Shown piece by piece: positions 16,852 through 35,200 of a stretch of 43,482 nucleotides of DNA. Below the pieces are notes generated by a model. The model worked only from the letters and a program-made list of their open reading frames with translations, was not told the origin of the DNA and did no database searches. The DNA comes from Candidatus Kaiserbacteria bacterium (GTDB lineage Bacteria; Patescibacteriota; Minisyncoccia; Phycocordibacterales; UBA918): positions 1 through 43,482 of the forward strand of contig JAYVHQ010000017.1 of NCBI GenBank assembly GCA_043771035.1. Direction: 5' to 3'. The number at the start of each line of letters is the position of its first letter. The first letter of the stretch is position 1. A program made the position numbers and the translations under genes.

Positions 16852-16917
16852 AGAATGGGCAAAATATGAACGTTGTTAGTTTCGCTTATCAATCGACATT
16901 TACTTAAGGACAGAATT

Positions 16918-16961
16918 AGCTTCGCCTAGGACATTTAGCTTCGCCTAGGACTCTCCTAGGG
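16918..16961. repeat. Copies C1 and C2 of the AGCTTCGCCTAGGAC repeat, 19 bp apart.
   Basis: Positions 16918-16932 read AGCTTCGCCTAGGAC. Positions 16937-16961 read AGCTTCGCCTAGGACTCTCCTAGGG. Confidence 0.85.
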
Positions 16962-16974
16962 AGTAGGCAGACAT

Positions 16975-17099
16975 TAAAACTTTATAAAATTAGTGCAATT
17001 CGAGGCAGGCAAGGAAAATCTTGCGAGCCGTACTTATTGTACGGTGAGTAAGATTTTACCGCAGCCTAACGAAGAAGTGTGCAATTTTATAAAGTTTTA
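16975..17099 (+). repeat. E-element copy E1, a 125-bp unit with 17-bp perfect terminal inverted repeats and a conserved internal hairpin. It is either MITE-like or a structured RNA.
   Basis: The ends read TAAAACTTTATAAAATT ... AATTTTATAAAGTTTTA. The internal part reads GCAAGGAAAATCTTGCGAGCCGTAC-TTATT-GTACGGTGAGTAAGATTTTACCGCAGC. The right end supplies part of the TAA stop (17097-17099) of the dockerin gene. Confidence 0.75.
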
Positions 17100-18213: not shown

Positions 18214-19179
18214 TTAGCTAATCAGCGAATCATCCTTACGTCCTTGACGTCTGTAGTAAATGAAATACAAAACAGCGATTATAAAGGCAAATAATGGCAG
18301 TAACACCGAAATCTTATGCGGGATTGAAAGACCACCAAAACCGTACCCGGCAGTTTGTAGAGTGCCATACGCCAAGATACTGAGATTAAGTTCTCCTTCT
18401 TGTTTCACCTCATCATTATTAAAAATTGTATAACGTGCCATATAACTACCTGCTGGTAGTTTAGTTGGTAAGTACGCAGTAATTTCTTCGGTTGCATACG
18501 GTGCAATCTTTTTTAGCCTACCGCTATGTTTTGTCTCTTCGAGTAAAACTGCTCCCGTTCTATCATAAATTCTAAATTGAACTTTCGAAGGTGCGATATC
18601 TACGTTACCGGTATTTTCGAGCGACATCTTGAAATTGATTTTTCCAGGGAAAAATAACCAGCCGAGTTTATGTCCCGCATCAAGATCAAGAACATCAATT
18701 TTTCGCACTCTAAAATCCTCGATTACACGATCAATCACATTGAGATTAATATCAACTTGGGCTCCAAGAGAAATACTGACAACTCCTTCAGCTACCTGAT
18801 CATCGGTCGGTTGTGTCCTGATACGAATCTTTCCTTCATATTCACGGTACGCGGCATCAGCTGGAACTTTAACTCGTACAGTCATGGCGACTTTTTGTTC
18901 ACCACGCGGCATAAGTATAGTTGTCCCTTCAACAATTTCTATCCAGTCTTGAATTTCTGGAGCATCAACCATAATCTGAGCATTCAGTGGTGCGTTAGGG
19001 TCACCACGTACGAGCAGTATCTGCTGCTCGTACGTTGAGTTACGGGTAAGACTGGTATTACGAACATACGGTGGAGTGATACCAAAACTGGCGCTCGCAA
19101 CCAATGTGCCAAACGCAAAATAAAGTATGACAACGAGCGAGCTCAATTGAAATAATGATGTGCAGGTGAGTGACTTCAT
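18214..19179 (-). CDS. Surface-complex anchor-like protein, paralog 3. It has a signal peptide, two beta-sandwich-like domains, a C-terminal TM helix and a basic tail.
   Basis: The signal peptide is LSSLVVILYFAFGTLVASA/SFG. Domain 1 ends in ...AYREYEGKIRIRTQP. Domain 2 contains KMSLENTGNVDIAPSKVQFRIYD...LPAGSYMARYTIFN. The TM is ISVLLPLFAFIIAVLYFIYY followed by RRQGRKDD. The layout matches paralogs 1 and 2. Confidence 0.8.
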   Translation of the reverse strand: MKSLTCTSLFQLSSLVVILYFAFGTLVASASFGITPPYVRNTSLTRNSTYEQQILLVRGDPNAPLNAQIMVDAPEIQDWIEIVEGTTILMPRGEQKVAMTVRVKVPADAAYREYEGKIRIRTQPTDDQVAEGVVSISLGAQVDINLNVIDRVIEDFRVRKIDVLDLDAGHKLGWLFFPGKINFKMSLENTGNVDIAPSKVQFRIYDRTGAVLLEETKHSGRLKKIAPYATEEITAYLPTKLPAGSYMARYTIFNNDEVKQEGELNLSILAYGTLQTAGYGFGGLSIPHKISVLLPLFAFIIAVLYFIYYRRQGRKDDSLIS

Positions 19180-19271: not shown

Positions 19272-21167
19272 CTACCAACTCAAAGGTGCAGAGACTGCTC
19301 CAGTGAAAGTGTTTTGCCCCGTGTACGACCCAGCAAGAGTAATTGCTGCTGGTACAGCGATACCCCAGAAGGTCTGGCCAGTTGACGGTGTAGAGGTACT
19401 TATTGGTTTTGGAATTTGATTAAGTAGTGTTAGTGGCGAAGACGTTGGCGCTAACGATACTCCTGCACCATACGCTACAGCTGATGTAGCGTATTTTTGC
19501 TCACTCTGAGGGATGGTTGAGGTAGCAGACACGCGACACGGGTTGGCTACAGAATACGTACCACACATTGAATCCCCTCCGAGTAACTGGTTTAGTCCTG
19601 TATTACCGAGTACTCGTAATGTTGTTGAGGCACTAAGGGTTGGCATATTTGTACCAGGCTCGAGCTGCGTGTAAGCAATGAGGTTTGTGAGCAAGCCAAT
19701 AGCGACCAAACCATTTAACTCCACAGGACTGGTTGAAGTGGACATAGATCCAGTGGCTGAGTTGTTATCAACTCCAGATACTCCAGCTGCCCAGGTTTGA
19801 GCAAAGAATGGAGTGTCCGTTGATGTGCCGTTTGTTGGGTCAGCAATAAACCAAAGTGGAAACGTACAGTTATAAATAATTGTGTCATCTGCTCCACCGG
19901 CTGTACAGCTAGTAGTTGAAGCTGTACAGGCCAGGTTCCAAGTTGAGGTGGCGACACCGCTTGGGTAACAGTTGTTAGGATTATAACTACCAGCTGAACC
20001 GTTACATGAAGAGGTACCCACTCCTGAACGGAATACTGAGGCAACATAACCGGTAATCTCGTCCGCATTTCCGCCACCGACCGCATCACAACTATTGGCA
20101 TCAGCTACAACGTACGACATTGTAAAGCCAGTTGTTTGACCACCAGGGTTTGATAACGTGATGTTCGTCCCGCCGTTAAGACTCAAAGTAGCACCGGCAA
20201 CTGTTGGCGCAACATTACTAACAGTATACTGAACGTTTACACCCTGAGCTCCACCAGTCGCACTATGCCCGTGCTGATCAAAAATATAAGGGAAAGCATT
20301 GTATGTACTTGCATCTTGCATAATGGCTGCTAACACTCTAGAAGTTGTTGCGTTTGTGAGCGAACCTGGTACAGAGGAAGAGGCGACTGTATCACCAGCT
20401 CCACACAAGTTAGTGGTGGTACTGTATGAAGCTGAACCGCAAACTACTAGGAAAATTGTGTCTTCTGCATCAACGATGTCGGGGTCAGTAGAGGTAGAGA
20501 GAAATTGTACTGTTCCGCCAGGAGCTGTTGCTCCACCGTTAGCAAAGGTTGTAAAGACGGGCCTTCGGTTTACGTTAAAAGGTGAACTATTTGTAGCGGT
20601 GGTTCCTTGAGACGAAGTAGTGCTGCAGCGTGGATTCACTGGATCATCGTCACATACCCATCCGTACCAGATGTTAGACTCAGAGAAAGGGGCCACCTCG
20701 GTAGTGGTAGTAGCTGCTCGAGCTTGGTTACCACTGATAGTAGAAGTTGAGACTGCCCAACGCGTACCCGCAGCACAGACTGGCGGCGCAGTACCAAGCG
20801 TTGAGGTTGACATCATAGGTGTTGGGGTAGCTGAGGTGCTACATAAAATCAAGAAATATGGTGCTCCGTTAGCATCCGTTGCTGTACCAATCCATGAGAC
20901 AGTGTTGCCTGAATTGGAGGGGGTCGTCGTTGAAGACTCAATCTGTTCACGGGCCTCCTGCCCCACTACCCACACTGGTGGGGTGTTAAGTACTGTCAAA
21001 GTAGTGGTGGCCGTACCTGACTGTGCTGATGCGATTTGTAACTCTGTTTTACCAATATTTAAGATAAAAACAAAGGCAAAGATTAATACTCCTGATAAGG
21101 CTGTTAATATGGTTATTTTTCCAGCAGTCTCTACATACTGCGGCAGTTCTTGTTTGTTGTACGTCAT
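19272..21167 (-). CDS. 631-aa Thr/Ser/Cys-rich secreted protein with an N-terminal signal anchor and a class-2 C-terminal module shared with the giant ORF.
   Basis: The N-terminal TM is ITILTALSGVLIFAFVFILNI. There are many paired Cys residues. There is no C-terminal anchor, and the protein ends ...FWGIAVPAAITLAGSYTGQNTFTGAVSAPLSW. Confidence 0.85.
   Translation of the reverse strand: MTYNKQELPQYVETAGKITILTALSGVLIFAFVFILNIGKTELQIASAQSGTATTTLTVLNTPPVWVVGQEAREQIESSTTTPSNSGNTVSWIGTATDANGAPYFLILCSTSATPTPMMSTSTLGTAPPVCAAGTRWAVSTSTISGNQARAATTTTEVAPFSESNIWYGWVCDDDPVNPRCSTTSSQGTTATNSSPFNVNRRPVFTTFANGGATAPGGTVQFLSTSTDPDIVDAEDTIFLVVCGSASYSTTTNLCGAGDTVASSSVPGSLTNATTSRVLAAIMQDASTYNAFPYIFDQHGHSATGGAQGVNVQYTVSNVAPTVAGATLSLNGGTNITLSNPGGQTTGFTMSYVVADANSCDAVGGGNADEITGYVASVFRSGVGTSSCNGSAGSYNPNNCYPSGVATSTWNLACTASTTSCTAGGADDTIIYNCTFPLWFIADPTNGTSTDTPFFAQTWAAGVSGVDNNSATGSMSTSTSPVELNGLVAIGLLTNLIAYTQLEPGTNMPTLSASTTLRVLGNTGLNQLLGGDSMCGTYSVANPCRVSATSTIPQSEQKYATSAVAYGAGVSLAPTSSPLTLLNQIPKPISTSTPSTGQTFWGIAVPAAITLAGSYTGQNTFTGAVSAPLSW
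19275..20215 (-). other. Class-2 C-terminal module of the 631-aa protein, homologous to 26210..27025.
   Basis: Several segments align between the two proteins. LSLNGGTNITLSNPGGQTT pairs with VTLNGGLDINLTPGTTT. NNCYPSG pairs with NNCYKGD. IAYTQLEPGTN..ASTTLRVLGN pairs with INYGSLALGGN..ASTTVTNVGN. IPQSEQKYATS pairs with IPANEQRFATS. IPKP....FWGIAVPA pairs with LAKP....YWGVAVPA. Confidence 0.55.
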
Positions 21168-21467: not shown

Positions 21468-22676
21468 TTATTCATAGCGAATGGCGTCGAGGGGATTCAA
21501 AGACGATGCACGGCGAGCGGGAAAAATTCCGGTCAAGTAACCCACAATGGCCGAGAAGACAATAATGAATGCGAGAAATCCAAGCGGAAATGCGAACAGT
21601 GTTACCGACTGACCTCCAAATTGACCGGCAACAAGATTGAGAAACAAATTTATAGTCATCCCTAATGTCACTCCCATCAACACACCAGTTAACCCTCCCA
21701 TAAAACCGACCACCACTGACTCAGATACGAAAAGATATTTCACATCGTTTGGTGACGCACCAATAGTACGCATAATTCCAATTTCTTTGGTTCGTTCGAG
21801 CAAGGTTACCGTCATCGTATTAAACATGCCGATAGCTGACACCAAAAGCGCAATACCCCCAAAAGTTGCTAACACCGCTTGTACCCCTTGGAAAATCTTT
21901 GAAGCTTGCTCGACAGTTTTAGACAAGGCGGTTACGCGGTACCCTTCTTCAATAAGCTGTTTTTCAATAATTGGTAAATTTTCATTACTGTCTACGCGAA
22001 CTTGGATACGTTCATATTCCTCGACACCAACATAATTACGCAGCTCAGGTAACATCATCATGGCATTGAGCACGCCTTCTTCTTTGGTAATACCACGGAC
22101 GGTATATTCTTTATCGATTACTACTTCAGTATTAGTATCTGAGCCATCCTCTGCTGGTATAAGCAATCTGAAACTTACCTTTTGCCCGATGAACGCCTTA
22201 GGATCTTCTATGCCGAACAATTTTAATACTGCCGGCGACAGCATCACCGAATTTACATCAGCAGCATCAGCGTCAGTAAAAACTACTCCTTCAGTAGCGG
22301 TTACTCCAGCATATCGCAAGTAAGGCGGCTCAACCCCTTGAATAAATACATTGCCCGTCAAACCTTTAAACGTAACCAGGGCAGGAAATTTAGCGAGCGG
22401 GGCAGCGTCGAGTACCTCAGGTTTTTTTTCAAAGGCGGCGACAGTTTCCGAAGTAAGTTTTAGGTTTTGGGCACCAGTAGCTGACACTCCGAGGGAAAGC
22501 AGGGTTTCGCCGAACACAATTTGCTCCAAAATAATCTGCTGCAGGCCAAAACCTAAACCCACAAGAATAACCACTGCCCCCGTCCCCACACCCATACCCA
22601 AAATCGTCAACCACGTTCGCAGTGGATTAGTCTTAAACATACGCGTCGAGAGCTGAGCGAGATCTTGAATTCTCAT
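21468..22676 (-). CDS. ABC transporter permease, FtsX/MacB family, with four TM helices and a large extracytoplasmic domain between TM1 and TM2.
   Basis: The N-terminus MRIQDLAQLSTRMFKTNPLRTWLTILGMGVGTGAVVILVGLGFG is typical of MacB/FtsX permeases. A soluble insert of ~215 aa follows. The C-terminal FtsX-type three-TM bundle ends ...GIFPARRASSLNPLDAIRYE, the family-typical tail. Confidence 0.85.
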   Translation of the reverse strand: MRIQDLAQLSTRMFKTNPLRTWLTILGMGVGTGAVVILVGLGFGLQQIILEQIVFGETLLSLGVSATGAQNLKLTSETVAAFEKKPEVLDAAPLAKFPALVTFKGLTGNVFIQGVEPPYLRYAGVTATEGVVFTDADAADVNSVMLSPAVLKLFGIEDPKAFIGQKVSFRLLIPAEDGSDTNTEVVIDKEYTVRGITKEEGVLNAMMMLPELRNYVGVEEYERIQVRVDSNENLPIIEKQLIEEGYRVTALSKTVEQASKIFQGVQAVLATFGGIALLVSAIGMFNTMTVTLLERTKEIGIMRTIGASPNDVKYLFVSESVVVGFMGGLTGVLMGVTLGMTINLFLNLVAGQFGGQSVTLFAFPLGFLAFIIVFSAIVGYLTGIFPARRASSLNPLDAIRYE

Positions 22677-22747
22677 TTGTTACATTATGACACGTACACA
22701 ACACGTAACTAAGGACAACTCACAGTTTAATTGAAAAGGTAAGTGAT

Positions 22748-22902
22748 ATTGAAAACGAGTGTAGTTGGTGGTGAGAGGAGTTACTAAATGTCACGCAACC
22801 TTGCGGACAGCGACTTGAGTCAGACACTCCGGTTGAGCTAGCTCACTCTTAGAGCGAACGTTCCATCGATTGGCTCTAGGAAAGAGCAAATCGGGAACAA
22901 AG
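22748..22902 (+). repeat. Degenerate E-element-like copy (E3) in the ATPase/permease spacer.
   Basis: ATTGAAAACGAGTGTAG (22748-22764) resembles the E left-end motif CAGAAACGAGTG. CTCTAGGAAAGAGCAAATCGGGAACAAAG (22874-22902) resembles CCTAGGGAAGAAAAAATCGGGACAGAAAT of E4b. The similarity is weaker than for the other copies. Confidence 0.35.
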
Positions 22903-22936
22903 CATAAACATACAACCTTGCGGTTGTTGTTATGCT
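22901..22936 (-). terminator. Hairpin with a GCAA tetraloop overlapping the ATPase stop codon. It may be an intra-operon attenuator or stabiliser.
   Basis: The minus strand reads AGCATAA-CA-ACAACC-GCAA-GGTTGT-ATGT-TTATGCT, followed by TTGTTCCCGATTTGC. That is two 6-bp helices with an internal loop. The U-tract is weak. Confidence 0.3.
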
Positions 22937-24252
22937 TTATAGCTGACGTCTACCCCTTGGGCAATCAACTTCTCAAAATACCTTGTCAGCTCATCGGCTT
23001 CACTTTCTGATAGTGCCAACCCCCGTTGTCTAATACCCGCCATGAGACGCGTATTAAACTCCAGTTCTTCTATCACACCGGTCACTCTATCAGCAATCAG
23101 CTCAACTAAATTCGTGTCTTGTTCTTTGGATAATTTAATCCTAAATATTTCCATTAAATGATCTTTGAGCCGCTCAGCCAACTTATGCTGACTAAAAAAT
23201 ATCCCGGGATTATCTTTTTTGGCCCGAAAGCGTCTAATATCATCTGATTGATGAATCATCAACTCAGATTTTTTTGCCATAGCCTTGGCAATTGCTTCTG
23301 GCATCTCTACCCCGCCCTGCTCACTCGGCAAGATTAGGGTTTTAATAAACGCGTCGTGATCTATTTTACCTTTAATAAAATGGCCGACCGCACGCTCTAG
23401 TTTATTAAGCTGATTAAAGGTGTAGTCTTGGGTCAGGTAATTAACCATACTTTTTACCCGTAGAGTATCTACTGAATCATACGGGAAAAGACGAGCCAGC
23501 TGTTCGAGCTCAGTCACGATTGTCTCCCCTTCTCGTACCGGTTTGATTTGTTTACGCTGCGGGTTTACTACTTCACGCACGATAAATCCATCTTTAAGAT
23601 AATACACCCGGTGCGCGTAACTCAGGTGCGCCGCATTGTGAGACACCATAATAATGGTTCGCCTATCAAAGGTATTGATCTCATCAATTTTGTCCATTAC
23701 CTGCTGTGTTGAAACCGAGTCGAGGTTACCTGTTGGTTCGTCTGCCAAAAGAATCTTAGGGTCATTTACCATTGATCTGGCTACTGACACACGTTGTTGC
23801 TGCCCTCCTGAGAGCATTGACGGGATTTTGTGCGACACGTGCCCTACTCCAAACCGATCAAGCAAAGACTGCGCCCGTCTGTCGCGGGTTGGTTTATCAA
23901 CGTCACAGAAAATTTGCGGTAGGGCGACGTTGTCGAGTACCGATAAAGAACCTATCAAGTTAAACGATTGAAAAATAATACCCATCACATACCGCTGAAA
24001 ATACACCCGCTCACTCGGTGGATAGGAGTAAATATCATCACCACGAATAAGGAGTGTCCCATCACCCGGTGGCAGTGAACCTTGGATAGAATACATCAGC
24101 GTTGATTTTCCTGACCCAGAGGCGCCGAAAAGAATAATGTACTCGCCTTCATAAATGTCAGTATTAACATTTTGCAGAGCTCGAAATTCGTTTTGTTTAC
24201 CTTTATTATAAATAATAGAAAGGTCTCGACAGGTGATAAAGGGCTTGGCCAT
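22930..24252 (-). CDS. ABC transporter ATP-binding protein (MacB/LolD/FtsE-like NBD) with an unusual ~210-aa helical C-terminal extension.
   Basis: Walker A is GASGSGKST. The Q-loop region is IFQSFNL. The signature is LSGGQQQRVSVARS. Walker B is ILLADEPTGNLD. The H-loop is MVSHN. After about residue 228 (22933..23571) a helical region with two similar halves has no NBD counterpart. Confidence 0.85.
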   Translation of the reverse strand: MAKPFITCRDLSIIYNKGKQNEFRALQNVNTDIYEGEYIILFGASGSGKSTLMYSIQGSLPPGDGTLLIRGDDIYSYPPSERVYFQRYVMGIIFQSFNLIGSLSVLDNVALPQIFCDVDKPTRDRRAQSLLDRFGVGHVSHKIPSMLSGGQQQRVSVARSMVNDPKILLADEPTGNLDSVSTQQVMDKIDEINTFDRRTIIMVSHNAAHLSYAHRVYYLKDGFIVREVVNPQRKQIKPVREGETIVTELEQLARLFPYDSVDTLRVKSMVNYLTQDYTFNQLNKLERAVGHFIKGKIDHDAFIKTLILPSEQGGVEMPEAIAKAMAKKSELMIHQSDDIRRFRAKKDNPGIFFSQHKLAERLKDHLMEIFRIKLSKEQDTNLVELIADRVTGVIEELEFNTRLMAGIRQRGLALSESEADELTRYFEKLIAQGVDVSYKA

Positions 24253-24737: not shown

Positions 24738-26180
24738 TTATTTACCGATGTTCTTCAACCAACCGAATGTACTCTGGAAGTTTTCCAAAATCAAATCGAT
24801 AATATTCTTTTCCTGAATTGGAGTGAACAGTACGAAGTTCTCTGACTGAATAGTGTTCTTGGCTTCGTCAGTACAATTGAGCCAAAATTGGTAGACAGTG
24901 GCGGGGGCGAAGTCAACAATTACCTCTACGTGGGTAGTTGAATACTGGACGTTTTCTTGTTCAATCGTGATGGGTTCTACGCCGCCGGCCACCCCTTCAC
25001 GATAGGTCATAAGACAACTGGCTGATTCATCAGTGTTCCACTCGACAATCGTCTGAATCCGGGATTCTCCACCGGGGAAAATAGTTGATTCGTTGGTCAC
25101 GTTTGTAATAATCGGCGGCGCGATATCACGGACGGTAATAAATTGAATTGGCTGGCTACGGACGCGATCTCCACCCGAGTTTTCTGCAATCACAAACGCC
25201 ACGTAGCGCGTACCCAGCGTCAGGTCCGCTAAGCGCATTTGGTGCGTTGTAGCTAAGGTCGGGCGACCAACTGAGTTTTGCACACCGGTGGTTAAGTCTT
25301 GAAATTCAATCAGGGCTTTGGCTGGCACAGTAGTATCCCACGCTAAAGTCGCGGCGTTTTCTTCTACTTTTACAATCCGCAGGTTACGTATATCGGGTAA
25401 AGATGCTTTGGTTCTAAAGGTGTAGTTGCGACTTTCACCGGTGATGCTGTACGTATCTTTAGACAGAACTTTAAAGGTATACTCCGTAAATGGCTCAAGT
25501 CCAATTAATCTAATTTCATGATCACTTGATGGCTCACCAGTTGATGACTGAGAAAATTCGTAGGTACCGTCAAAGCCCTGAGTTTTAGAAAATTGCACTT
25601 CTGAAGTAGCAGGTCTGTCGGTTACCCACTTCACCAGTGCAGTGTTTGTTTCTGGGATCACTGTTGGTGGCCCAACAATCGCTAAGACTTGGGAGATACC
25701 TTTGATGACCTTGATGGTTTCATCAATAATCTCTTGTAGTTTCGGGATACTGGTGATCTGCTTTATTTGTTCGATTATTTCTTTGGTTGGCTCAGAATCA
25801 CTCTTCCCCTCCCCGATAGCCGGTGTACCATCTGTTTGGATTTTGTAGTCAGCTGAAATGCCCTGGTTTCCTTCGAGGTCAGCTGATACGACACGGAAAT
25901 AGTAGGTTCGGCCGGGTTCGAGATTATTTAAGGTGACTGAGTGAGTGGTTCTGTCAGCTACTGGTACACGCACAATACCGTAGTCAGCTTGCAGGCCGTA
26001 GTTTACCGCCGAGTCAGCTTTTTCACTCGTTTCCCAGGTGAGCGTCACACTCTCCTTGGTCGTAGTACCAATTTTTACATTACTAATCTCCGGCGCTTTT
26101 GTGTCATTTGATTGAGCAATAACTGTCTGACTACTAAGAAGAGCCAGACACACCACTACAAATAAGAAGTACCCGCGCAT
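24738..26180 (-). CDS. Secreted protein with four FN3-like (purple-acid-phosphatase-N-like) domains and a helical linker.
   Basis: The signal peptide is MRGYFLFVVVCLALLSSQTVIA/QS. Repeats include VTLTWETSEKADSAVNYG...HSVTLNNLEPGRTYYFRVVS, ALVKWVTDRPATSEVQF...LEPFTEYTFKVLS, ATLAWDTTVPAKALIEF...LTLGTRYVAFVIA and a fourth copy. The gene starts 26 nt after the giant ORF stop. Confidence 0.8.
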   Translation of the reverse strand: MRGYFLFVVVCLALLSSQTVIAQSNDTKAPEISNVKIGTTTKESVTLTWETSEKADSAVNYGLQADYGIVRVPVADRTTHSVTLNNLEPGRTYYFRVVSADLEGNQGISADYKIQTDGTPAIGEGKSDSEPTKEIIEQIKQITSIPKLQEIIDETIKVIKGISQVLAIVGPPTVIPETNTALVKWVTDRPATSEVQFSKTQGFDGTYEFSQSSTGEPSSDHEIRLIGLEPFTEYTFKVLSKDTYSITGESRNYTFRTKASLPDIRNLRIVKVEENAATLAWDTTVPAKALIEFQDLTTGVQNSVGRPTLATTHQMRLADLTLGTRYVAFVIAENSGGDRVRSQPIQFITVRDIAPPIITNVTNESTIFPGGESRIQTIVEWNTDESASCLMTYREGVAGGVEPITIEQENVQYSTTHVEVIVDFAPATVYQFWLNCTDEAKNTIQSENFVLFTPIQEKNIIDLILENFQSTFGWLKNIGK

Positions 26181-26206: not shown

Positions 26207-29200
26207 CTATATCGATACTGGCGTAAAGACGTTGATACCGGAGTGCGGCGCACTGTTGACTCCAGTCGCTGGTACTGCAACACCCCAATAGATTGGAACA
26301 ACTACCGGTGGTGTAGGTGCGGTTGGTTTTGCTAATCCGATTGCAAGATTAGTTGGTGTCGTGCTCGACATCACGCTACAAGCCGTACATCCGCTATACG
26401 TAAAGGTTGAGGTCGCAAACCTTTGTTCATTGGCAGGAATACGTGAGCTACCACCATCAGAGAGATCGGTACCAAGCACTTCAATATTAAAGGCAATATT
26501 TCCAACATTAGTCACCGTGGTACTCGCATTTGCGGCACCAGTATTTCCGCCAAGTGCTAGCGAGCCATAATTAATCGAGTTATTTACTGACGCTGCTCTT
26601 AAGGTAATAAGTTCCTGAGCAATCGCAGACTCAAAGTCATATGTACCACTCGAGTCACGCACTTCAAGATAGGCTGACCATTTTTCACCTTCATAGAGAT
26701 TAACCGCTGGTAAAATATACGCATCAGTTGCTTCAGCGTTAAAGTAAATATCAGCACGACATGAAAGCGTACAAGTATTGCCGGCACAATTAATAAACGA
26801 ACAACTTGAACTTGAAGTCGTATCTCCTTTGTAACAATTATTAGTATTGGCAGTACAGCTTGGACCCGCTCCAGTACGATAGATAGTTGAACTGCCGGCA
26901 ATAATATCGGCATAGCCGTTAAGGTCAGTTACCGTTCCAGTAGCAAAGACCGTTGTTGTCGTACCGGGAGTTAGATTAATATCAAGACCACCATTAAGAG
27001 TCACCGCGCCAAATACCGGATCAAACTGGAGATTCATTTCAGCCACTTTGTTGTAGAAATCAAGTGGAGTGCCGCCATTGGTAACGCGCAAACAGTATGA
27101 TGAAGTCGCATTGATAGTCGGCGTCAGAACATATTCAAGTTCAGTATATTTATTTTGATTAAGGTTAAGTGCGGTTGTGATATTTGACGGACTTTCAATT
27201 ACTTTACCTGCAGCGAATGCACCCGAAGTCGAAGCCAGGTGATCGGTACTAGCGTCACCGTCAGCTACAAACGTTGAAGTCTGCATACAGATTGGTGAAC
27301 TACCACAAGAAGCTTGATTTGGTACAGCGCTAAAGTTCCCTGTTGGCACAGCTTCACAACTAGGTGCCGCTCCCTTTGGTGCCGCTTCCAGTCTAAAGGT
27401 TTGATTTACGATATCGAGACCAGAATTTTCAATGGCAAAGCGCAGGCGTTTATTTACACCCGTCACACCGCTGCCGGCTACGTTCTGCAGCTTCTCCCAC
27501 GTTGCTCCTCCGTCCGTTTGCTCGGCGCCAAAATAAACTGTCGGTGCAATCATCGCTTTAGCCCGGGCGGTATAACTATCCCACGAACCATTTTGGAACC
27601 AGAAGGTAAAGCCGACGCCACCAGTAGTGTAACTACTATCGGTTGTAGAAGCGGTGGCAACAAGTGCGCCAGCGGCAGTCCGCAAGTAGGCAGTCATAGA
27701 GTTGTTAGTCCTCCAGTCAACTTCTACTTCATACCAACCTGTCGCGTAGGTAACAGTAGATGAAGCGAGAACCGTTCCTGAAGAATCGTTGTCATAAATA
27801 TTTTTAGCAATCACCATTCTATCAATACCGAACTGTTGTAGACAGATAGCGTAGTTGTTGTTGTTTACCCCTGGGCTCTGCACCCCAAACAACGTACAAG
27901 CATCGTCGCCTGAACCGGCTGTATCAATGTACTGCATCCATCTGATGATTTGTCCTTGCGATACCGTCATTGTTGTTCTAAAGATACCGTCGGTAGTACG
28001 ACCACTCTTGTTTTGTGCTTCAAGTGAGTAGGTTCCTCCGTAGACTGGCGCTGTGTCAGTTTGGAACAAACTAGTATCACCTGAATACTCAGTGATGTTG
28101 TTATCTTCAAAATCATCAAAGGCCGCGAACGTTGTCGCTCCTGAACTCGTGTTAGCAGCAGTTGAACTACCGTAGTACATAAATGTAGTCGCTGTTTCGC
28201 TCGCAGGCAAATTAGGCACCCTAATCCATACTACGGCGTCAGTACTAGCGGTATAACGCTCAATCCAGTACGGAATTTGGGTCAGTCCATCACTTGACGT
28301 AAACCGCAAATCATCAAAGTCTGCCTGCATGTTACTGTCATAGGCCACATTAATTTTGATAGCTGAACTGGCGTAGCTGCTAGTGTCGCTATTTATTACC
28401 CGGACTCGCTGTCTGTAATCAAAACTGGTATTAAACCATTCGGAGGCGGTCGCTCCTTCTCCTCCGTCGTCGTTACGCCACCGATAATGGGTTTGCTGGG
28501 TCAGCAAACACCCACTGTTATCAAAGCGAATTGATCCACAGGCAGTTACGCCATCGATATCAAACGCTTCCCCGCCAATATTTCCGAAGCTGCCATTAAA
28601 CCGCCACGCATTGCTGGTTGAACCTGTCAGATTAACGTTAAAACCAGTAATCGCTGACGAAGTAGCAAATCCTACATTAGTAAACACTTTTGAAGCGTTG
28701 GCATCAAGTACCGAAGCTGCTACAGAAATCAGTGAGCCCCCGGCGCTTGTCAGTATATAGGAACCGTTTGAGAGGTTCGTGATTGTTGGCGAGCCCGTTA
28801 GAGTGAGGCCACCCGCTCCCAAGTTCGTCATAGTGTAATACTGCGCGTTAAGAGTTCCGCCATTTACGGTAAGGCCGTACGAACCACCGAACAAAGCAGC
28901 GACCGTGGTTGAGGTGGCGGTCGTACCGAGAATCTGAAGCGACCCAGTAGTAACTGTTGTAGAAGCTCCAGCAGCCATTCGCACATTCACTTGGCGCAAA
29001 CTGGCGCCAGCAAGTACCGTACCATCAAAGTCATTTGCATAGTTCCAGTATTCGGTAGTGGTAGCAATAGTCACATTACCGTAAATAGTAAGCGACCCAT
29101 CAACTCCAGCGTGATCTTGGGAATAAAAAGATGCTGAGCCTAAGACAGTCGTAGTAGCGGCACTACTATTCCATGCACGGATAGCCAGTGGGCTGACAAT

Positions 29201-32200
29201 TTCAAGCGTACCATACACATCGCCTCCCAAAGTTTTGGTATTAATGGTGTAGTCGCTCACACCAGAGAGTTTGAGTGTCGAGGTGGCCCAGGTTGTGTTT
29301 GCTCCGCCGACAGTATTAGTGAATACTCCACCAACATTTAGTATCGTATTCGGTTCTTTGGTAAAGGTACTAGCGCCGGTAATTGAGAAATTATTTGTTG
29401 TAGTTGCGTTACCTACAAAGTTCCAGCCACCGGTGGCACTTCCAAACACGACACTATACAGATTATTTGTACCAAAGTTTACTGTCTTACCGACACTGGT
29501 GGCGTTAAAGAGGACAGTACCGCTTGCGTTATTAACGGTACCCGAAGCTATGAGGAAATCCCCGCCGACAGACAACGTGCCGGTAGCAAGGGTGAGTGTG
29601 CCAGTTGCCATTGTGAGCGAGTCAGCTAGGGTTAGATTTACATCACTCATAGTGAACGGACCGACACCTGTGAATCTCACGGCAAAGAGGTTTGAGCTAC
29701 TTGCTTTAAGGCTAGCTGTCGACGTTGCGCTCATAATAATATCTGCCGTATTGTGCACAATTGTACCAGTCAAGTTTTCAAAACTAGCACCAACACCAAG
29801 GTTCCCCGAAGGCAAAGTCACTGTTCCAGAAGCAATCCTGAAGTTACCGGTTGTTGTAGCATTGCTGTCCGCCATACTCCATGAGCCACCTATACCCTGG
29901 AAGCGAACACTCGGTACTACAGAATCATCAAACCGTACGATATTGCCCGTAGTAGTGCTCGTAAACAAGAGGGCCGTGCCACCCATAGTAAACGCCCCAG
30001 CCGTGGCATTAAACGACGCACCGATAGTAGTAGTGCCACTACCAAATGTGATCGCGCCATTTGATTGTACAAATGAACGGCTGGTGGTAAAGATGGCGTC
30101 GGTGATATCCCAAGAACCAGCTCCGGTAAATGCAATGTTATAGAAGGTGTTGCTGTTTACATCAATGGTACGACCCGCTCCAGTTGTTGTGAAGGTTGTA
30201 GTTGACTGTCCCGCTGTAAAGAGAGCCCCTGTGCCAAATATCATACTGCCGCCAATGGTATGAGACTCCGTGCCGAGAGCACGGAAGGTGGCGTTGGTTT
30301 GCGCTTCAAGCGTTCCGTCTTGTGCCGCCCCACCACCGCCACCTGCCACTGTCACATTACCAGCTGGTTCAAAGGTCTTGCCGCTCCAGATCAGAAGCTT
30401 TTGATCAGCCGGCAGTGACAAGGTATCGATTCCTGCATCAACGGCCGTAAAGAGAATATCGCCATCGTCAGAGCTGTCCCAAATTGCCATATCGGCAATA
30501 GACAGTGGACTCGTGTTTTCATGTCGAACAATCACCCGGTTTTCATACAGATTCATATTACTGATTGATGACACGGGGTCGGCGCTCACGGTCACCGCCT
30601 TGCGGATATTGTTATCAATATACACAGAGAGCGTGTCGGCCGGACTAAAGGCAACATTTGGAATACTGTACGCTCCCGTCCCCGCGTTACATGACGCGGT
30701 GTAGGTAGTCAGTCCAGCAACTCTAAGCAGAATATTTTGCGTCACACCGTTACAGACTGGTGATACAGTCACTCCTTCATCACTGTAAACATTTCCTGAG
30801 ACAGTAATCAGCGCCGCTGAGTCATCCCAGACGACATAGCCAGGGTCACCCGCTGGATCATTATCGTACGCTTCACCAGAAAGTAGTCCCGTGTGGTTGG
30901 TAAAGCGCCACGAACTAATTGAGGTACCAGTTGCCGTAACGTTAGTAGCACCAGTTACGCCAGAGGATGAAGCAAACACGTTATTTGTGAAGTTTTTGGC
31001 TTGGTTGGCATCAATGACTGTTCCGTTCACGGTAATACCTGTACCACCATTTACTCCAATTAAATGATCTGTTCGTGAGAAGTTAGCAACTAGTGGGGTC
31101 CCCGTAAATACCACACCAGAGGCATTCATGTTACGGACTAAAACAGTATCCCACGTTGTTGACGCTGTCCCCGACAAGGTCAAACCATACGTACCAGCGC
31201 CCTGATTGGTGATTGTGGTAGAAGCGGTACTGGTACCGATTACTTCAAGCGAGCCACCAGCATACGAAGCACTTGAGCCTGACGCCAGACTGACATCTAC
31301 CTTACGTGCGCCGCCTCCTAAAGCCACTCCATCAAAGTCTGTAGCATAACTCCAATAATCATTACCTGTCACTACCGTGTAGGTACCGTAAATATTGAGC
31401 GTACCATCAACCGCAGCGTGATCTTGTGAGTAAATACTACCAAGCGCAGCGTAAGTCGAGGCACTACTATTCCACATTTTTACGTTGGTACTCGAAGCGA
31501 CAAACAAAGTGGCGTATACATCACCCACTGTTTTGGCATTTATATTTTTTGTTCCGCCGCCAAAGAAACTGAGCGTACTGCTAGCAAACGTAGTAGCCGC
31601 CCCACCGAGAGTATTTGTAAATGCTCCACCGATTGCCATAGTTGTACCCGAAGCCTGCGTGAAGTTTGTGTGATTCAGGAGCGTCAGCGCCACAGTCGTC
31701 GTCGCATTTTGCGACATGGTGAAGTTACCTGCCCCGTTATTTATAAGCAATGATCCAAAGCTTCCGTTCCCGGCGGCCACTGTATTTGAACCTGCTCCGA
31801 CCATCGCTACCAAGCCCCCGTTACTGATGAATGTACCAAAGTTAGTCCAGTTACTACCTACAGAAGTAGTTGCAATGTTGCTAGCTGAAAATGTTCCGTT
31901 ACTGCGAATTGATACACTGCCTCCTACGAGTAAAGCTGGATCACTGCTGTTTACATCAAAAGTAGTCGCTGCTGTGCCGCCAATAGTGAGATTATTTGTC
32001 ACCGCAATACCGACACCAGTTGGGGTATAGGTCGGAGTACCCGCGCCCGCATTAATATCGAGGTTATAGTAGGTGGTTGAAAGAACCTGCGCGCCGGCAC
32101 CACTGTATCTAAAGGTACTAGTATCCTCTTGCAAAGTACCACCTTCGACAAACACCGTGCCCGCACCTGCTAGATCCCAGTTACTATTACCAGCGACGAG

Positions 32201-35200
32201 GAAGTGGGCTGGGCTAATGGTTAGCCTGCCGAGTATAGTAGTGGTAGCTACACTGGCCCTGGTTGTTGTACCAGCAACTAATCCACTACCAAGAACGAGA
32301 TTATTAAATGTCCAAGCCCGAGTACCACCAAGGGTATTGGTGCGATTGATAGTCGTAGTTCCACTACCAAATGAGAGAGTTCCTTCGCCTGAGAGCGAGC
32401 CGTTAGTGAGCGTCACATTGCTTGTACCGGTGACAGTTCCGGTCGCCACATCCATATTGCCATTTACAATCAGTGGCGCGGTAATATTCCACCCACCACC
32501 TACACCTGTAAATTGCACAGCATTAAAGGTAACGGTATTCGGACTCGTAATACTTTTGCCAGTCGTTGAGGCATTAAAGATAAAGGTCGATGACGCTGAG
32601 GTGAGGACTGATGTGGTAGCAAGCAACAGTCTTCCAGCTAAAGTATGGGTCTCGGTACCAGAGGCGGTAAAGGTAGCAGCGGTACCCAATTGGAGAGTTC
32701 CTTCAATAGCTGATGTGCTGGCGTTACCATGAAGCGTGACATTTCCACCCGGCGCAAACGTAGTGGTCGCAAATACAAACAGGCTATTTGGAGCCAGCAC
32801 TCTGAGTGCAGTTACCCCCGTAGTAGTGGCAACAAACTGAATATCCGAATCATCATCATTATCAAATGACGTCATGTCAGCGATTGTGAGTGGAGCTATA
32901 TCCTGATGACGAGTGATTACCCGACCAGCATAGATATTCATGTTGGTAATATTGCCTGACGGAGTTTTCGTCACGACTGAACCGTTCACGCCACCATTGG
33001 TATTAAGGTACACAGTAATTTTTGGATCACCGATGTAATTTACACCCGCAAGAGTGTAAGTGCCGGTGCCAGCAGCGCAAGTAGTGGACGCCGTAAACGT
33101 ACCATTATTTACTACCACACGCACATTTGGTGTAGTGCCGTCGCAAGTTGGTGACGAGAGCGGTGTTATTCCATCATCAGCATATACCACACCGGAAATC
33201 GTAATTGAGTTGGAACTATCATCCCACCGGACTGAACCAGGATTAGCGTCACCTCCATCGTAGGCTTCACCATACAAGTTTCCTGTACCAAGTCGGAACC
33301 AGACAAATGATGAGGTAGTACCAGTTAAGGTGACGTTAGTACCCCCACCTACTGATGAAGTAGCAAATCCAATACCAAAATATTGGGCTGATGGGTTCTG
33401 GGCTACGGTAGTGCTACTGATAGTAATACCAGTATGGCCAGGTACAACGTTGAAGAATCCGTCTTGGAATATTGCTAATGTCGTTGAAGCATTAAGCCTA
33501 AGACCACTAGCGTCGATACCAGTCACGGTAAAGTTTTGTGCAGTAATGGTAGAGGTAGTAGCACTCAGGGTAAAGGTACCCGAGATAGCATCAATGGTAG
33601 TTGAAGCACTTGCTCCACCAACCAGATTGAGTGAGGCGCTGGTAAGGCCAACTTTAGAACTAGAAGCTATACGCACGTCCACTTGTCTACTTGTAGTGCC
33701 CGTGAGAGCAGCCCCATCAAAGTCAGTTGCAAAACTCCAATACTCAGTACCCGTGGTCCTAACATAATCGCCGTAAATATTTAAATCACCGTCAACTGCA
33801 GCATGATCAGCTGAGTAAATTGATGAGGTGCTGGCGGTGCTGTAGGTCGTTGCTGTACTATTCCACATTGTCATATCAGTATCACCGTTTGTCAGAATAG
33901 TGGCGTAAGCGTCTCCACTATGTGATTTTAGATTGATAGCAGCGTCTACTCCCGATAGACTGAGAGTTGAACCAGTCCAGGTGGTACTCGAAGCGGTCGC
34001 GGCATTTGAAAACGTACCCAAAGCTGCAAGTGTCAGTCCGCTTTGTAAGGTAAATGCAGAAGCACTCGTGAGGTTTATGGCAACCGTGGCAGTGGCATTT
34101 TGCGTGACCGTAAAAATACCTGAAGCGCTATTAAATTCAAGCGTCGCAAAGGTTGAGCTACCGACAGCGATTGTCTCGGCTCCTCCAGTTGAGTTAAAAC
34201 GCACAGTACCATTATTTGCGCCGAAGCTGGCGACGTTAGTAAATGAACCAGCTACTCCCAGAACACCAGTTGGAAATGTAGCGTCTCCACCAAGTTCAGA
34301 CACGTAATTACCCAATATAGTTGTGTTAGTGTCAGTAAAGACTCGCACCGTTCTAGATTGCGCTGCGCCGACACTGTAGAAAGCAGTAGAACTTGACTGG
34401 TTATTTTCTTCGGTAGCAATCCAACCAAAGGTTCGCGCCACTGAAGCCAGCCTAAACTCATCAACTCGTCCATCATGGAAGCCACCTCCACCACCTGAAC
34501 CGGCGGCTCCAATTGCAAAACCAGTAATCACAGCCGGGTCGTCTGAGGCTGCCCCGGTAGTTATTTGCGCTCCATCAAGGTAAATACCCATAAACGCGCC
34601 CGCCCCGCCAGCTGACACCAGACCGACATGAGTCCATTTATCTCGATATGCCGTGTAGCCAGCAGTAATACGACCAGTAGCTCCACAACAATTTCCATAA
34701 TCCCAATAGAGGGTATTGTCACTGTATGGAGCGTGGGCAGCAAAACGATCGTCACCAGCGCCCGCATTAAAACCAAACATACTGGCTACTTTAACTTCAG
34801 AAACAGCTACGTTACTCCAAGCGGTGACAGTGACCGGCGTAGACGTCCACGAATACGTACCATTTGTTAGCGTGTCATTTACACCATCAAAATCAATACT
34901 GTTTCCAATGATACCCGCCACACTATTGCCCGCTCCCATACCACCGGCAGAAGTGAGGTTGCGACCATTAACGGTACTGTCTACAAGTACACTGGTTGGA
35001 TTAGTGCCTAGGTGATACACCGCCTCAAAGCCGTTAGTCCAAACATTGTTTCGACCAAAGGTTGACGTAGCGCTGTAAGCGCTCGCTGTCCCATTACCAT
35101 AATAAATATAGAACGTTGTGTTGGTACTTGAACTCACGGTCGGTGCTTTAAAGTGCAGCTCGCCCGTTTTAGCGACTGTATCAATAGCCACTAGTTCGTA

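What the first reader, a model, noticed from the sequence alone, without database searches (positions are those of the whole stretch)
26210..27025. Class-2 C-terminal module shared by the giant ORF and the 631-aa protein
About 270-310 C-terminal residues of the two proteins (26210..27025 and 19275..20215) are collinear. They share an Ig-like LNGGxxIxLxPG domain with a conserved Cys pattern around NNCY. A second domain carries I(N/A)YxxLxxGxN...ASTT(V/L)...GN, IPxxEQ(R/K)(F/Y)ATS, (I/A)(P/K)KP and (Y/F)WG(V/I)AVPA. The second half repeats the FG/YG...N-x-G-N...terminal aromatic logic of class 1, so both classes may be divergent members of one fold. A 631-aa protein and a protein of more than 5,700 aa therefore carry the same tail. 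That fits a common docking or assembly signal better than a shared catalytic function.
Basis: partly seen in the sequence, partly recalled or inferred. Interest (0 to 1): 0.7.

Follow-up and report, generated by a model that had tools for sequence, protein, structure and literature searches.

The report
Shared C-terminal surface-attachment module, Patescibacteria
A giant surface protein and a 631-residue protein of an ultra-small (CPR/Patescibacteria) bacterium end in the same unannotated two-domain module. It most likely serves as the common handle by which a neighbouring membrane-anchored, chaperone-like protein holds such proteins on the cell surface or assembles them there.

Summary
The last ~273 residues of the giant ORF and the last ~314 residues of the 631-aa ORF are collinear homologues (BLASTP E 1e-16; z = 20 against shuffles; natural T/S/G-rich segments score far lower).

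AlphaFold2 models the tail with pLDDT 95.8 as two beta-sandwich domains. These are a Cys-rich Ig-like D1 and a seven-strand D2 whose last strand is the protein's C-terminus.

The family has no Pfam, NCBIfam or PDB sequence match. It is large (2,711 cluster representatives) and appears restricted to Patescibacteria. The module is C-terminal in 142 of 145 representatives and in 78 of 80 genomes. Cargo ranges from none (module-only proteins of ~300 aa) to more than 7,000 aa.

Genes for small and medium members are always followed by a highly conserved 321-aa protein: signal peptide, two Ig-like domains, C-terminal TM helix. Its best structural match is enterococcal WxLIP bound to a long WxL protein, followed by the FimC, Caf1M and SafB chaperones.

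The layout therefore mirrors WxL clusters of Firmicutes and Pam pili of CPR. The "docking/assembly" reading is supported by context, but binding and strand complementation are inferred. Common descent with "class 1", which is a remote Pam-pilin C-terminal domain, is not demonstrated.

The parts
26210..27028 (-). Class-2 module of the giant protein (last ~273 aa). It comprises D1, a linker and D2.
   Evidence: BLASTP E 1e-16 to the 631-aa tail. AF2 pLDDT 95.8, pTM 0.87. HMM hits at residues 5485-5619 (D1) and 5621-5756 (D2) of the window-limited ORF.
26627..27016 (-). D1: Ig-like beta-sandwich of about 8 strands. It carries LNGG, TDxNG, ADPTD and six conserved Cys around NNCY.
   Evidence: DSSP of the AF2 model, tail residues 9-138. 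Conserved columns are listed. Disulfide and Ca-binding roles are inferred from the motifs only.
26594..26626 (-). Conserved inter-domain linker with the motif GVELxxLxA.
   Evidence: Family conservation mapped on the model. Only isolated beta-bridges appear in the monomer model.
26210..26593 (-). D2: seven-strand s-type Ig-like sandwich (A'/B/C/C'/E/F/G). Motifs are IxYGxL, xTVxNxGN, IPxxxQ(K/R)FATS, KP, YWGIxVP and GxNxFT. Its last strand is the protein's C-terminus.
   Evidence: AF2 DSSP, tail residues 150-275. The D2 HMM hits only the two C-termini in the window.
26207..43482 (-). Giant surface-protein ORF, truncated by the window edge. More than 5,757 aa lie in the window; a near-identical contig,963 aa.
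   Evidence: The frame is open upstream of the first ATG. L007 is 100% identical over the tail and neighbouring genes and,963 aa. Pfam finds DUF2341 and Ig_Rha78A_N. Orthologues of 5,300-7,700 aa start with a signal or anchor segment.
19275..20216 (-). Class-2 module of the 631-aa protein (D1 at 19734..20216, D2 at 19275..19730).
19272..21167 (-). 631-aa protein. It has an N-terminal signal/anchor (21024..21167, predicted cleavage ASA|Q), a mature N-terminal strand motif TATTTLTVLNTPP (20976..21014), two further beta-rich domains, and then the class-2 module.
   Evidence: Translation. A single N-terminal hydrophobic segment. The conserved N-terminal motifs recur in about 15 homologues. The cleavage site is inferred from the sequence.
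18214..19179 (-). 321-aa WxLIP/PapD-like protein: signal peptide, two beta-sandwich domains, C-terminal TM helix. It is the proposed partner (anchor or chaperone) of the class-2 module.
   Evidence: AF2 model. Foldseek top hit is 9i25_C, WxLIP bound to long WxL, E 8.5e-9, followed by FimC, DraB, Caf1M and SafB. The top 120 of 1,245 homologues are 65-100% identical. The gene lies directly downstream of a class-2 gene in every independent locus with sequence available.
24738..26180 (-). 480-aa secreted FN3-repeat protein, 26 nt downstream of the giant gene. It is a conserved companion of the giant.
   Evidence: Pfam fn3 / Pur_ac_phosph_N. A homologue lies downstream of the giant tail in 72 of 77 species-representative genomes.
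21468..24252 (-). MacB/FtsX-type ABC transporter pair (ATPase 22930..24252, permease 21468..22676), lying between the giant/FN3 genes and the 631-aa gene.
   Evidence: NCBIfam hits to MacB, LolCDE and FtsX. The position is conserved, with 44-88% identity across loci. Its role in this system is unknown.
14103..15254 (-). 'Class-1' 383-aa pilin-like protein. Its C-terminal domain is a remote member of the Pam-pilin C-terminal family.
   Evidence: NF058581 CPR_Pam_pilin_C, E 6e-4 here; 25/28 family members hit it, best E 6.9e-10.
1898..8059 (-). 2,053-aa protein ending in the class-1 C-terminal domain.
   Evidence: BLASTP E 9e-15 to the 383-aa protein over the last ~200 aa.
913..1890 (-). Second WxLIP-like protein (signal peptide, beta domains, C-terminal TM), immediately after the class-1 giant gene.
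   Evidence: Weak homology to the 321-aa protein, E 2e-4. Weak Pfam WxLIP_PGBD hit, E 0.025. Start codon chosen.

Best explanation
The shared tail is a self-contained, two-domain all-beta module. D1 is a Cys-rich Ig-like domain, and D2 is a seven-strand PapD/ASH-type Ig-like domain that ends the protein. The module defines a large, unannotated family of secreted surface proteins in Patescibacteria (Paceibacteria, Kaiserbacteria and relatives).

It works as a common handle. Proteins carrying anything from no cargo to more than 7,000 residues of N-terminal cargo are recognised through it by one membrane-anchored protein with two Ig-like domains. Here that protein is the 321-aa product, which has a WxLIP/PapD-like fold and is encoded right after the 631-type gene. 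Recognition is most likely by beta-strand complementation. The cargo proteins are thereby held on the cell surface or assembled into a surface fibre.

This is functionally the same arrangement as short WxL + long WxL + WxLIP in Firmicutes, and as Pam pilins + the TM-anchored chaperones PamC/D in other CPR.

Shown: homology of the two tails, the fold, the C-terminal position, the family's size and taxonomic range, the synteny, and the partner's fold.

Inferred: the physical interaction, the strand complementation, and whether the outcome is static anchoring or polymerisation.
For: - Homology is far above compositional controls.
- The AF2 model is confident and shows two beta-sandwich domains.
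- An exhaustive profile search finds 2,711 representatives. The module ends within 12 aa of the C-terminus in 142/145 of them.
- In 80 species-representative genomes the module ends 0-3 aa from the stop in 78.
- Cargo size ranges from module-only proteins of ~300 aa (P0092, P0098, and L004's 313- and 317-aa genes) to 7,696 aa.
- Lectin-type domains are grafted before the module, inside the D2 E-F loop (Kelch, L004 609-aa protein), or after it (LamG, Kelch, DUF1566-like). This pattern suggests the module is a scaffold rather than the ligand-binding part.
- A WxLIP-like gene follows the class-2 gene or genes in all independent loci where the downstream sequence is available: window, L001, L004, L010, L011, L012, L013.
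- The 321-aa protein has a signal peptide, two beta-sandwich domains and a C-terminal TM helix. Its best PDB match is WxLIP bound to long WxL (9i25_C, E 8.5e-9), followed by chaperone-usher chaperones.
- Its invariant mature N-terminus FGITPPYVRNTSL is predicted disordered when modelled alone. This is a pattern seen in segments that fold on binding.
- The same window holds a parallel set for class 1: a 383-aa protein, a 2,053-aa protein and a second WxLIP-like gene. Class 1 matches the Pam-pilin C-terminal model.
- Published precedents: a WxLIP strand fills a gap in the WxL sandwich (PMC10599100); Pam pili are assembled by TM-anchored chaperones (bioRxiv 10.64898/2026.03.03.709456).
Against: - There is no detectable sequence relationship to WxL, to the Pam-pilin C-terminal domain or to any solved structure.
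- Foldseek of the module returns only generic tandem-Ig hits with TM 0.2-0.35.
- In the monomer model D2 looks like a complete seven-strand sandwich at very high confidence, with no evident missing strand or groove. Coordinates could not be inspected.
- The giant gene is adjacent to the FN3 gene, not to the WxLIP-like gene.
- Among giant orthologues the tail is no better conserved than the 900 residues upstream, about 50% identity throughout.
- Three representatives carry extra domains after the module.
- No co-folding or experiment links the module to the 321-aa protein.
Confidence: 0.55

Rival explanations
1. The tail is the distal functional end, an adhesive or ligand-binding tip, and not a handle. 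The proteins stay attached through their N-terminal signal-anchor and present the shared C-terminal module to the host cell.
For: - Giant orthologues and the 631-type proteins begin with a hydrophobic segment that could be an uncleaved anchor.
- The tail is no more conserved than the rest of the giant.
- D2 appears complete in the monomer model.
- D1 carries TDxNG/ADPTD motifs resembling Ca-dependent adhesion domains (inference from sequence).
Against: - Module-only proteins with ordinary cleavable signal peptides (VVA|D, VLA|D) would then have nothing to hold them.
- Recognisable lectin-type domains (Kelch, LamG, DUF1566-like) are grafted onto the module, which suggests it is not itself the binding part.
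- The strict pairing with a membrane-anchored WxLIP/PapD-like protein is left unexplained.
Confidence: 0.2
2. The module is a non-covalent cell-wall (peptidoglycan or glycopolymer) binding anchor that needs no protein partner, as originally proposed for WxL, SLH or LysM-type C-terminal anchors.
For: - The position is C-terminal and the cargo is variable.
- WxL domains were first described as peptidoglycan-binding (PMC10599100).
- The module has conserved aromatic and polar surface motifs (YWG, Q, K).
Against: - No match to any known wall-binding family.
- The conserved adjacency to the WxLIP-like gene argues for a protein partner.
- A 6,900-aa protein held only by a lectin-like contact is plausible but untested.
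Confidence: 0.12
3. The tail is an export, sorting or processing signal read by the neighbouring MacB/FtsX-type ABC transporter. This would be analogous to C-terminal T1SS signals of giant RTX adhesins or the T9SS C-terminal domain.
For: A highly conserved ABC ATPase + FtsX permease pair lies between the two class-2 genes in all loci. Giant adhesins of other bacteria use C-terminal signals; this rests on my own knowledge and was not tested.
Against: - The proteins have N-terminal Sec-type signals.
- The module is 270 aa of well-folded domains, not a short unstructured signal.
- The transporter is MacB/Lol/FtsX-type, not HlyB-type.
- L001 and L004 have class-2 genes with the WxLIP-like gene but no adjacent ABC pair in the sequence examined.
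- Extra domains can follow the module.
Confidence: 0.05
4. The resemblance is compositional chance between two T/S/G-rich sequences.
For: Both tails are rich in T, S, G and A.
Against: - z = 20 against shuffles, and natural low-complexity-like segments score at most 82 against 237.
- Composition-adjusted BLASTP E is 1e-16.
- There are thousands of homologues with conserved motifs and a confident common fold.
Confidence: 0.01

Closest known systems
WxL gene clusters of Firmicutes (short WxL + long WxL + WxLIP = DUF916/DUF3324 + TM helix; Csc clusters). Sources: PMC10599100 and PDB 9i25/9i1y.
   Same: - A small protein that is little more than the module, and a large protein with N-terminal cargo, share one C-terminal module.
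- The cluster encodes a signal-peptide protein with two Ig-like domains and a C-terminal TM helix.
- The 321-aa protein's best structural match is WxLIP bound to long WxL. Its paralogue weakly hits Pfam WxLIP_PGBD.
   Different: - No WxL Pfam hit and no dual Trp-x-Leu motif.
- The module has two domains and ~270 aa, rather than one domain of ~160-190 aa.
- The host phylum is Patescibacteria.
- Cargo reaches about 7,000 aa.
- Extra conserved companions are present (FN3 protein, MacB-type ABC pair, dockerin and cohesin-like proteins).
- No sequence-level match of the partner to DUF916/DUF3324.
Pam pili of CPR bacteria (PamA/B/E/T pilins, TM-anchored chaperones PamC/D, FN3 anchor PamR). Source: Troman et al. 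2026, bioRxiv 10.64898/2026.03.03.709456.
   Same: - Same superphylum.
- The subunit architecture is a beta-sandwich NTD, a linker and an Ig-like CTD.
- Both have paired cysteines.
- Both have two chaperone-like proteins with C-terminal TM helices per cluster.
- Both have an FN3-repeat protein in the cluster.
- The class-1 proteins of this same window match NCBIfam CPR_Pam_pilin_C.
   Different: - Class 2 does not match the Pam model: 0/77 members.
- Class 2 shows no significant profile similarity to class 1.
- The FN3 protein here has no C-terminal TM helix.
- Polymerisation and donor-strand exchange are unproven for class 2.
- The paper describes neither giant cargo nor the Paceibacteria.
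Chaperone-usher two-domain tip adhesins (FimH, PapG) and their PapD/FimC chaperones.
   Same: - Cargo at the N-terminus and an assembly-competent Ig-like domain at the C-terminus.
- A partner with the PapD-like two-domain fold: FimC, DraB, Caf1M and SafB are among the Foldseek hits, E 1e-7 to 1e-5.
   Different: - There is no outer membrane and no usher.
- The partner is membrane-anchored.
- D2 in the model has its own C-terminal G strand, so it is not the classical G-less pilin fold.
Cohesin-dockerin anchoring (also present in this cluster).
   Same: It is a modular C-terminal docking domain shared by unrelated cargo proteins. Dockerin-bearing proteins (371 aa, 252 aa) and cohesin-like TM proteins lie in the same window.
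   Different: The class-2 module has no dockerin or EF-hand match and is four times larger.

Membership tests
WxL domain (Pfam PF13731) | Significant match to the WxL profile, or the dual Trp-x-Leu motifs. | tested here: not met
   Pfam scan of both tails and of 77 family members at E <= 1 gave no WxL hit. The sequence shows YWG and, in the 631 type, a terminal W, but no paired WxL motifs.
WxL domain (Pfam PF13731) | C-terminal position shared by a short and a long protein of one cluster. | tested here: met
   Module-only proteins are seen.
WxL domain (Pfam PF13731) | The cluster encodes a WxLIP (two Ig-like domains plus a C-terminal TM helix). | tested here: met
   Met at the level of fold and architecture only. 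AF2 model. Foldseek top hit 9i25_C WxLIP, E 8.5e-9. No Pfam DUF916/DUF3324 hit for the 321-aa family. The paralogue 913..1890 gives E 0.025 to WxLIP_PGBD.
WxL domain (Pfam PF13731) | A gap in the beta-sandwich is filled by a WxLIP strand. | not testable with these tools
   No complex prediction and no access to model coordinates. The monomer model shows seven strands in D2.
Pam pilin (NCBIfam NF058581 CPR_Pam_pilin_C) | Match to the Pam pilin C-terminal domain model. | tested here: not met
   0 of 77 class-2 members at E <= 1. For comparison, 25 of 28 class-1 members hit it.
Pam pilin (NCBIfam NF058581 CPR_Pam_pilin_C) | Two-domain subunit: beta-sandwich NTD, linker strand, Ig-like CTD. | tested here: met
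   AF2 model with D1 at 9-138, a conserved linker at 139-149 and D2 at 150-277.
Pam pilin (NCBIfam NF058581 CPR_Pam_pilin_C) | Filament formation by donor-strand exchange. | not testable with these tools
   This needs multimer prediction or cryo-EM. The only hints are a conserved T-rich strand plus NxxP at the mature N-terminus of small and medium members, and four tandem paralogues in L004.
Pam pilin (NCBIfam NF058581 CPR_Pam_pilin_C) | Operon with chaperones that carry a C-terminal TM helix. | tested here: met
   The 321-aa protein and the 913..1890 product.
Chaperone-usher pilin domain | Incomplete Ig fold lacking the C-terminal G strand. | tested here: not met
   The model has a C-terminal strand (residues 270-275, GxNxFT) following the F strand. 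Note the caveat that this is a monomer prediction.
Sortase / LPXTG or other C-terminal sorting signals | An LPXTG-like motif followed by a hydrophobic stretch and a basic tail. | tested here: not met
   The tails end ...NVFTPVSI* and ...SAPLSW*. There is no C-terminal hydrophobic segment.
Dockerin type I | Match to the duplicated EF-hand-like Ca-binding profile. | tested here: not met
   No Dockerin_1 hit in the tails or in the 77 members.

The most novel reading that the evidence does not exclude
The class-2 module defines a second, so far unrecognised donor-strand-type surface fibre of Patescibacteria. In this reading, module-only and 631-type proteins polymerise through their conserved N-terminal T-rich strand into the D1-D2 unit of the preceding subunit. 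The ~7,000-aa giant protein is the tip subunit, comparable to a FimH with a 6,700-residue 'lectin domain'. Assembly is catalysed on the cytoplasmic membrane by a WxLIP/PapD-like chaperone without an usher, possibly helped by the conserved MacB-type ABC transporter. This would also tie WxL clusters of Firmicutes, Pam pili and this system together as one ancient monoderm chaperone-assisted assembly principle.
Probability: 0.25. Interest if true: 0.8.

Novelty: new variant of a known kind. Interest (0 to 1): 0.58.

Why it matters
Patescibacteria/CPR make up a large share of bacterial diversity and live attached to host cells. How Paceibacteria build their attachment apparatus is essentially unknown.

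This module marks thousands of surface proteins, including some of the largest proteins these tiny genomes encode, and it has no annotation in Pfam or NCBIfam. Recognising it, together with its conserved WxLIP/PapD-like neighbour, has three practical consequences:
- It provides a handle to annotate these proteins.
- It predicts which proteins are displayed together.
- It extends the recently described Pam and WxL-WxLIP logic to a new lineage and a new domain family.

It also makes a concrete, testable prediction: strand complementation between the module and the 321-aa protein.

Tried and rejected
1. Pfam and NCBIfam scans of both tails and of all 77 aligned members gave nothing meaningful.

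2. PDB sequence searches with the profiles of class 2, class 1 and the 321-aa family gave nothing. The Pam pilin structures are evidently not in the copy, or are too distant.

3. Foldseek of the two-domain model against PDB and BFVD gave only generic tandem-Ig hits (RbmA, Fabs, integrin, phage Ig-like proteins) with low TM-scores.

4. hhalign of class 2 against class 1, both whole and domain by domain, was not significant. I therefore reject the claim of demonstrated common descent. D2 vs class-1 CTD is the best and a collinear pairing.

5. I asked whether the tail is better conserved than the stalk among giant orthologues. It is not, at about 50% identity everywhere, so this gives no discrimination between a handle and a tip.

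It was repeated with the giant-tail subfamily only, so its taxonomic picture covers that subfamily.

7. tRNA and Rfam scans of the window found nothing.

8. A literature search for a link between WxL and donor-strand mechanisms found no direct paper. The paper behind PDB 9i25 is not in the library.
Full report
**Setting.** The window is a block of minus-strand genes for secreted or membrane proteins. Homologues carry the names Patescibacteria, Parcubacteria, Kaiserbacteria and Paceibacterota. A near-identical metagenomic contig (L007) reproduces the gene order with 99.7-100% identical proteins. The giant ORF is cut by the window edge. Its frame is open upstream of the first ATG, and L007,963 aa.

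**Observation check.**
- The last ~273 residues of the giant ORF (26210..27028) and the last ~314 residues of the 631-aa ORF (19275..20216) align collinearly. BLASTP gives 30% identity over 301 columns, E 1e-16, with composition-based statistics.
- The Smith-Waterman score is 237 against 55 +/- 9 for shuffles (z = 20). The maximum is 82 against 47 natural T/S/G-rich segments of the giant, the 2,053-aa protein and the 631-aa N-terminus.
- HMMs for the two halves hit once each, in the same order, only at the two C-termini. They hit nowhere else in the 5,757 window-encoded residues of the giant or in any other window protein.

**Anatomy.** With the 77-sequence alignment, AlphaFold2 gives pLDDT 95.8 and pTM 0.87.
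- D1 (tail residues 9-138) is an eight-strand Ig-like sandwich. It carries LNGG, TDxNG, ADPTD and six conserved cysteines around NNCY. Disulfides and a Ca site are inferences from the motifs.
- A conserved linker GVELxxLxA follows.
- D2 (150-277) has the A'-B-C signature IxYGxL...TVxNxGN typical of PapD/ASH-type s-type Ig domains. This attribution rests on my own knowledge of that pattern; some members give only insignificant hits to Cep192_D3, DUF11 and similar models.
- D2 ends with an F-G hairpin, YWGIxVP...GxNxFT, whose G strand is the C-terminus of the protein.

**Family.**
- Neither tail nor any of the 77 members matches a Pfam or NCBIfam family. No PDB chain matches by sequence.
- The word-indexed search found 109 relatives.
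- The exhaustive profile search found 2,711 cluster representatives at E <= 1e-3, of which 1,216 are at E <= 1e-30.
- Of the 145 newly returned proteins among the top 150, 142 end within 12 residues after the module. 34 are longer than 3,000 aa (up to 7,696), and 12 are shorter than 400 aa.
- The three exceptions are real architectures in which a DUF2341+LamG, a Kelch propeller or a DUF1566-like domain follows the module.
- In locus L004 a Kelch-like region is inserted inside D2, between the E and F strands.
- A scan of GTDB species representatives with the giant-tail subfamily found 181 genomes. The best 80 carry Patescibacteria-type labels, except one bin labelled 'Acidimicrobiales'.
- In 78 of those 80, the protein stops 0-3 residues from the position equivalent to the giant's C-terminus.
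- Module-only proteins with ordinary signal peptides exist: P0092, P0098, P0104, P0106, P0108, and the 313- and 317-aa genes of L004.

**Context.**
- The gene order is: giant(class-2 tail) - FN3 protein - ABC ATPase - FtsX/MacB permease - 631-type(class-2 tail) - 321-aa protein - Big_6/dockerin protein - class-1 pilin-like protein - two cohesin-like TM proteins. It is conserved in L010, L011, L012 and L013.
- The FN3 gene follows the giant tail in 72 of 77 species representatives.
- Smaller versions keep the core. L001 has a module-only protein followed by a 299-aa homologue of the 321-aa protein. L004 has four tandem class-2 genes followed by one such homologue.
- In every independent locus where downstream sequence exists, the class-2 gene or genes are followed by this protein.

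**The neighbour.**
- The 321-aa protein is one of the best conserved proteins of the cluster. The top 120 of its 1,245 homologues are 65-100% identical.
- Its AF2 model (pLDDT 77.9) shows a signal helix, two beta-sandwich domains and a C-terminal TM helix. The invariant mature N-terminus FGITPPYVRNTSL is predicted disordered.
- The FG(I/V)(T/S)PP start is kept even in the 28-30% identical homologues of L001 and L004.
- Foldseek against the PDB puts 'WxLIP from Enterococcus faecium locus A bound to long WxL' (9i25_C, E 8.5e-9) and free WxLIP (9i1y) at or near the top. The chaperone-usher chaperones FimC, DraB, YadV, CupB2, Caf1M and SafB follow at E 1e-7 to 1e-5. TM-scores are low (0.3-0.4), as expected for a hinged two-domain protein carrying extra helices.
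- A second, distantly related copy (E 2e-4) lies directly after the 2,053-aa class-1 gene. It weakly hits Pfam WxLIP_PGBD (E 0.025).

**What is known.**
- In Firmicutes, WxL clusters encode three proteins. The short WxL protein is the domain alone. The long WxL protein has N-terminal host-binding domains plus the C-terminal WxL domain. WxLIP consists of DUF916 + DUF3324 + a TM helix. AlphaFold predicts that a WxLIP strand fills a gap in the WxL sandwich (PMC10599100).
- In CPR, Pam pili are built from two-domain pilins (NTD sandwich, donated linker strand, truncated Ig-like CTD). PapD/FimC-like chaperones carrying C-terminal TM helices assemble them, with a CTD-only tip and an FN3 anchor (bioRxiv 10.64898/2026.03.03.709456). 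That paper does not mention Paceibacteria, giant proteins or WxL.

**Interpretation.**
- The window contains two parallel sets, each made of a small protein, a giant protein and a WxLIP-like protein.
- The class-1 set is a remote relative of Pam pilins. 25/28 members hit NF058581, best E 6.9e-10, but below the curated cut-off.
- The class-2 set, the subject of this finding, has the same organisation but a C-terminal unit that current methods cannot relate to class 1, Pam or WxL. hhalign gives prob 0.5% for the whole profiles. D2 vs class-1 CTD gives P = 0.025, the best of six domain pairings and collinear, but not significant.
- I therefore read the class-2 tail as the common handle by which cargo of any size is captured by the membrane-anchored 321-aa protein.
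- Strand complementation is inferred from the two precedents and from the partner's fold. It is not shown here.
- Whether the result is static anchoring (the WxL-like reading) or a fibre (the Pam-like reading) is open.
- Hints for a fibre: four tandem paralogues in L004, and a conserved T-rich strand ending in NxxP at the mature N-terminus of all module-only and 631-type proteins seen (TATTTLTVLNTPP in the window's 631-aa protein). In the giant, the equivalent strand belongs to the preceding domain, as expected for a tip subunit.
- Points against: D2 looks complete in the monomer model; the tail is not better conserved than the stalk; and the strand motif could simply be the usual inter-domain connector of tandem Ig arrays.

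**Rivals.**
- A distal adhesive tip, with the N-terminus as the anchor, remains possible (0.2).
- A partner-independent wall-binding anchor is possible (0.12).
- A sorting signal for the MacB-type transporter is unlikely (0.05).
- Chance is excluded.

**Verdict.**
- The docking/assembly interpretation is partly supported. It fits the context and the partner's fold, but binding is untested.
- The 'one fold with class 1' idea is unproven.
- I file the finding as a new variant of a known kind: WxL-WxLIP / Pam-type handle-and-chaperone surface display. The domain family is large, unannotated and specific to Patescibacteria.

Noticed in passing
window 14103..15254, 1898..8059 and 913..1890 (all minus strand): The 'class-1' pair (a 383-aa and a 2,053-aa protein) shares a C-terminal domain that is a remote member of NCBIfam CPR_Pam_pilin_C. 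25/28 family members hit it, best E 6.9e-10, below the cut-off. A second WxLIP-like, TM-anchored protein is encoded right after the 2,053-aa gene. The ~375-aa pilin-like protein is about 60% identical across more than a thousand clusters. This suggests Pam-like pili extend to the Paceibacteria, which the Pam paper does not name.
   Followed up: partly
window 21468..24252 (minus strand): A MacB/Lol/FtsX-type ABC transporter pair sits between the two class-2 genes. The ATPase has a ~210-aa C-terminal extension. It is among the best-conserved parts of the cluster (44-88% identity across loci). Its link to surface-protein assembly is unknown.
   Followed up: partly
window 24738..26180 (minus strand): A secreted 480-aa protein with 3-4 FN3 / Pur_ac_phosph_N-like domains lies 26 nt after the giant gene. 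A homologue follows the giant tail in 72 of 77 species-representative genomes. Unlike PamR, it has no C-terminal TM helix.
   Followed up: partly
window 43379..43482: The giant ORF's reading frame is open up to the window edge, and its window-encoded start has no signal peptide. A near-identical contig (L007),963 aa, and orthologues begin with a signal/anchor segment. The gene is therefore truncated by the window.
   Followed up: yes
window 17097..18212, 9766..10524, 11207..12958 and 12968..14029: Two proteins end in type-I dockerin-like modules. One is the 371-aa protein, which also has Big_6 and a myxo-type Cys-rich repeat; the other is the 252-aa protein. Two TM-anchored proteins look cohesin-like, and the L010 orthologue of the 583-aa protein hits Pfam Cohesin. 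A cohesin-dockerin display system seems interleaved with the pilin-like genes.
   Followed up: partly
L004 12744..14573; proteins P0316, P0328, P0361: Lectin-type domains are grafted onto the class-2 module at different places. A Kelch-like region is inserted in the E-F loop of D2. In rare members, LamG+DUF2341, Kelch or DUF1566-like domains are appended after the module.
   Followed up: partly
window 21024..21167 (N-terminus of the 631-aa protein): The cytoplasmic start MxYNxxELPxYxxTAGK before the hydrophobic segment is conserved in many 631-type homologues (P0067, P0076, P0100, P0280, P0283, P0302, P0314). This suggests a specialised signal or anchor region.
   Followed up: no
window 15255..17096: This is a 1.8-kb stretch without a minus-strand gene. 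Its only sizeable ORF is on the plus strand (15828..16400, 190 aa). That ORF has no Pfam match, and no tRNA or Rfam hit was found anywhere in the window.
   Followed up: partly
window 8143..9651 (minus strand): A 502-aa secreted protein has a T/S-rich N-terminal region and weak TolB-like beta-propeller repeat matches (TIGR04275, E 5e-7).
   Followed up: no
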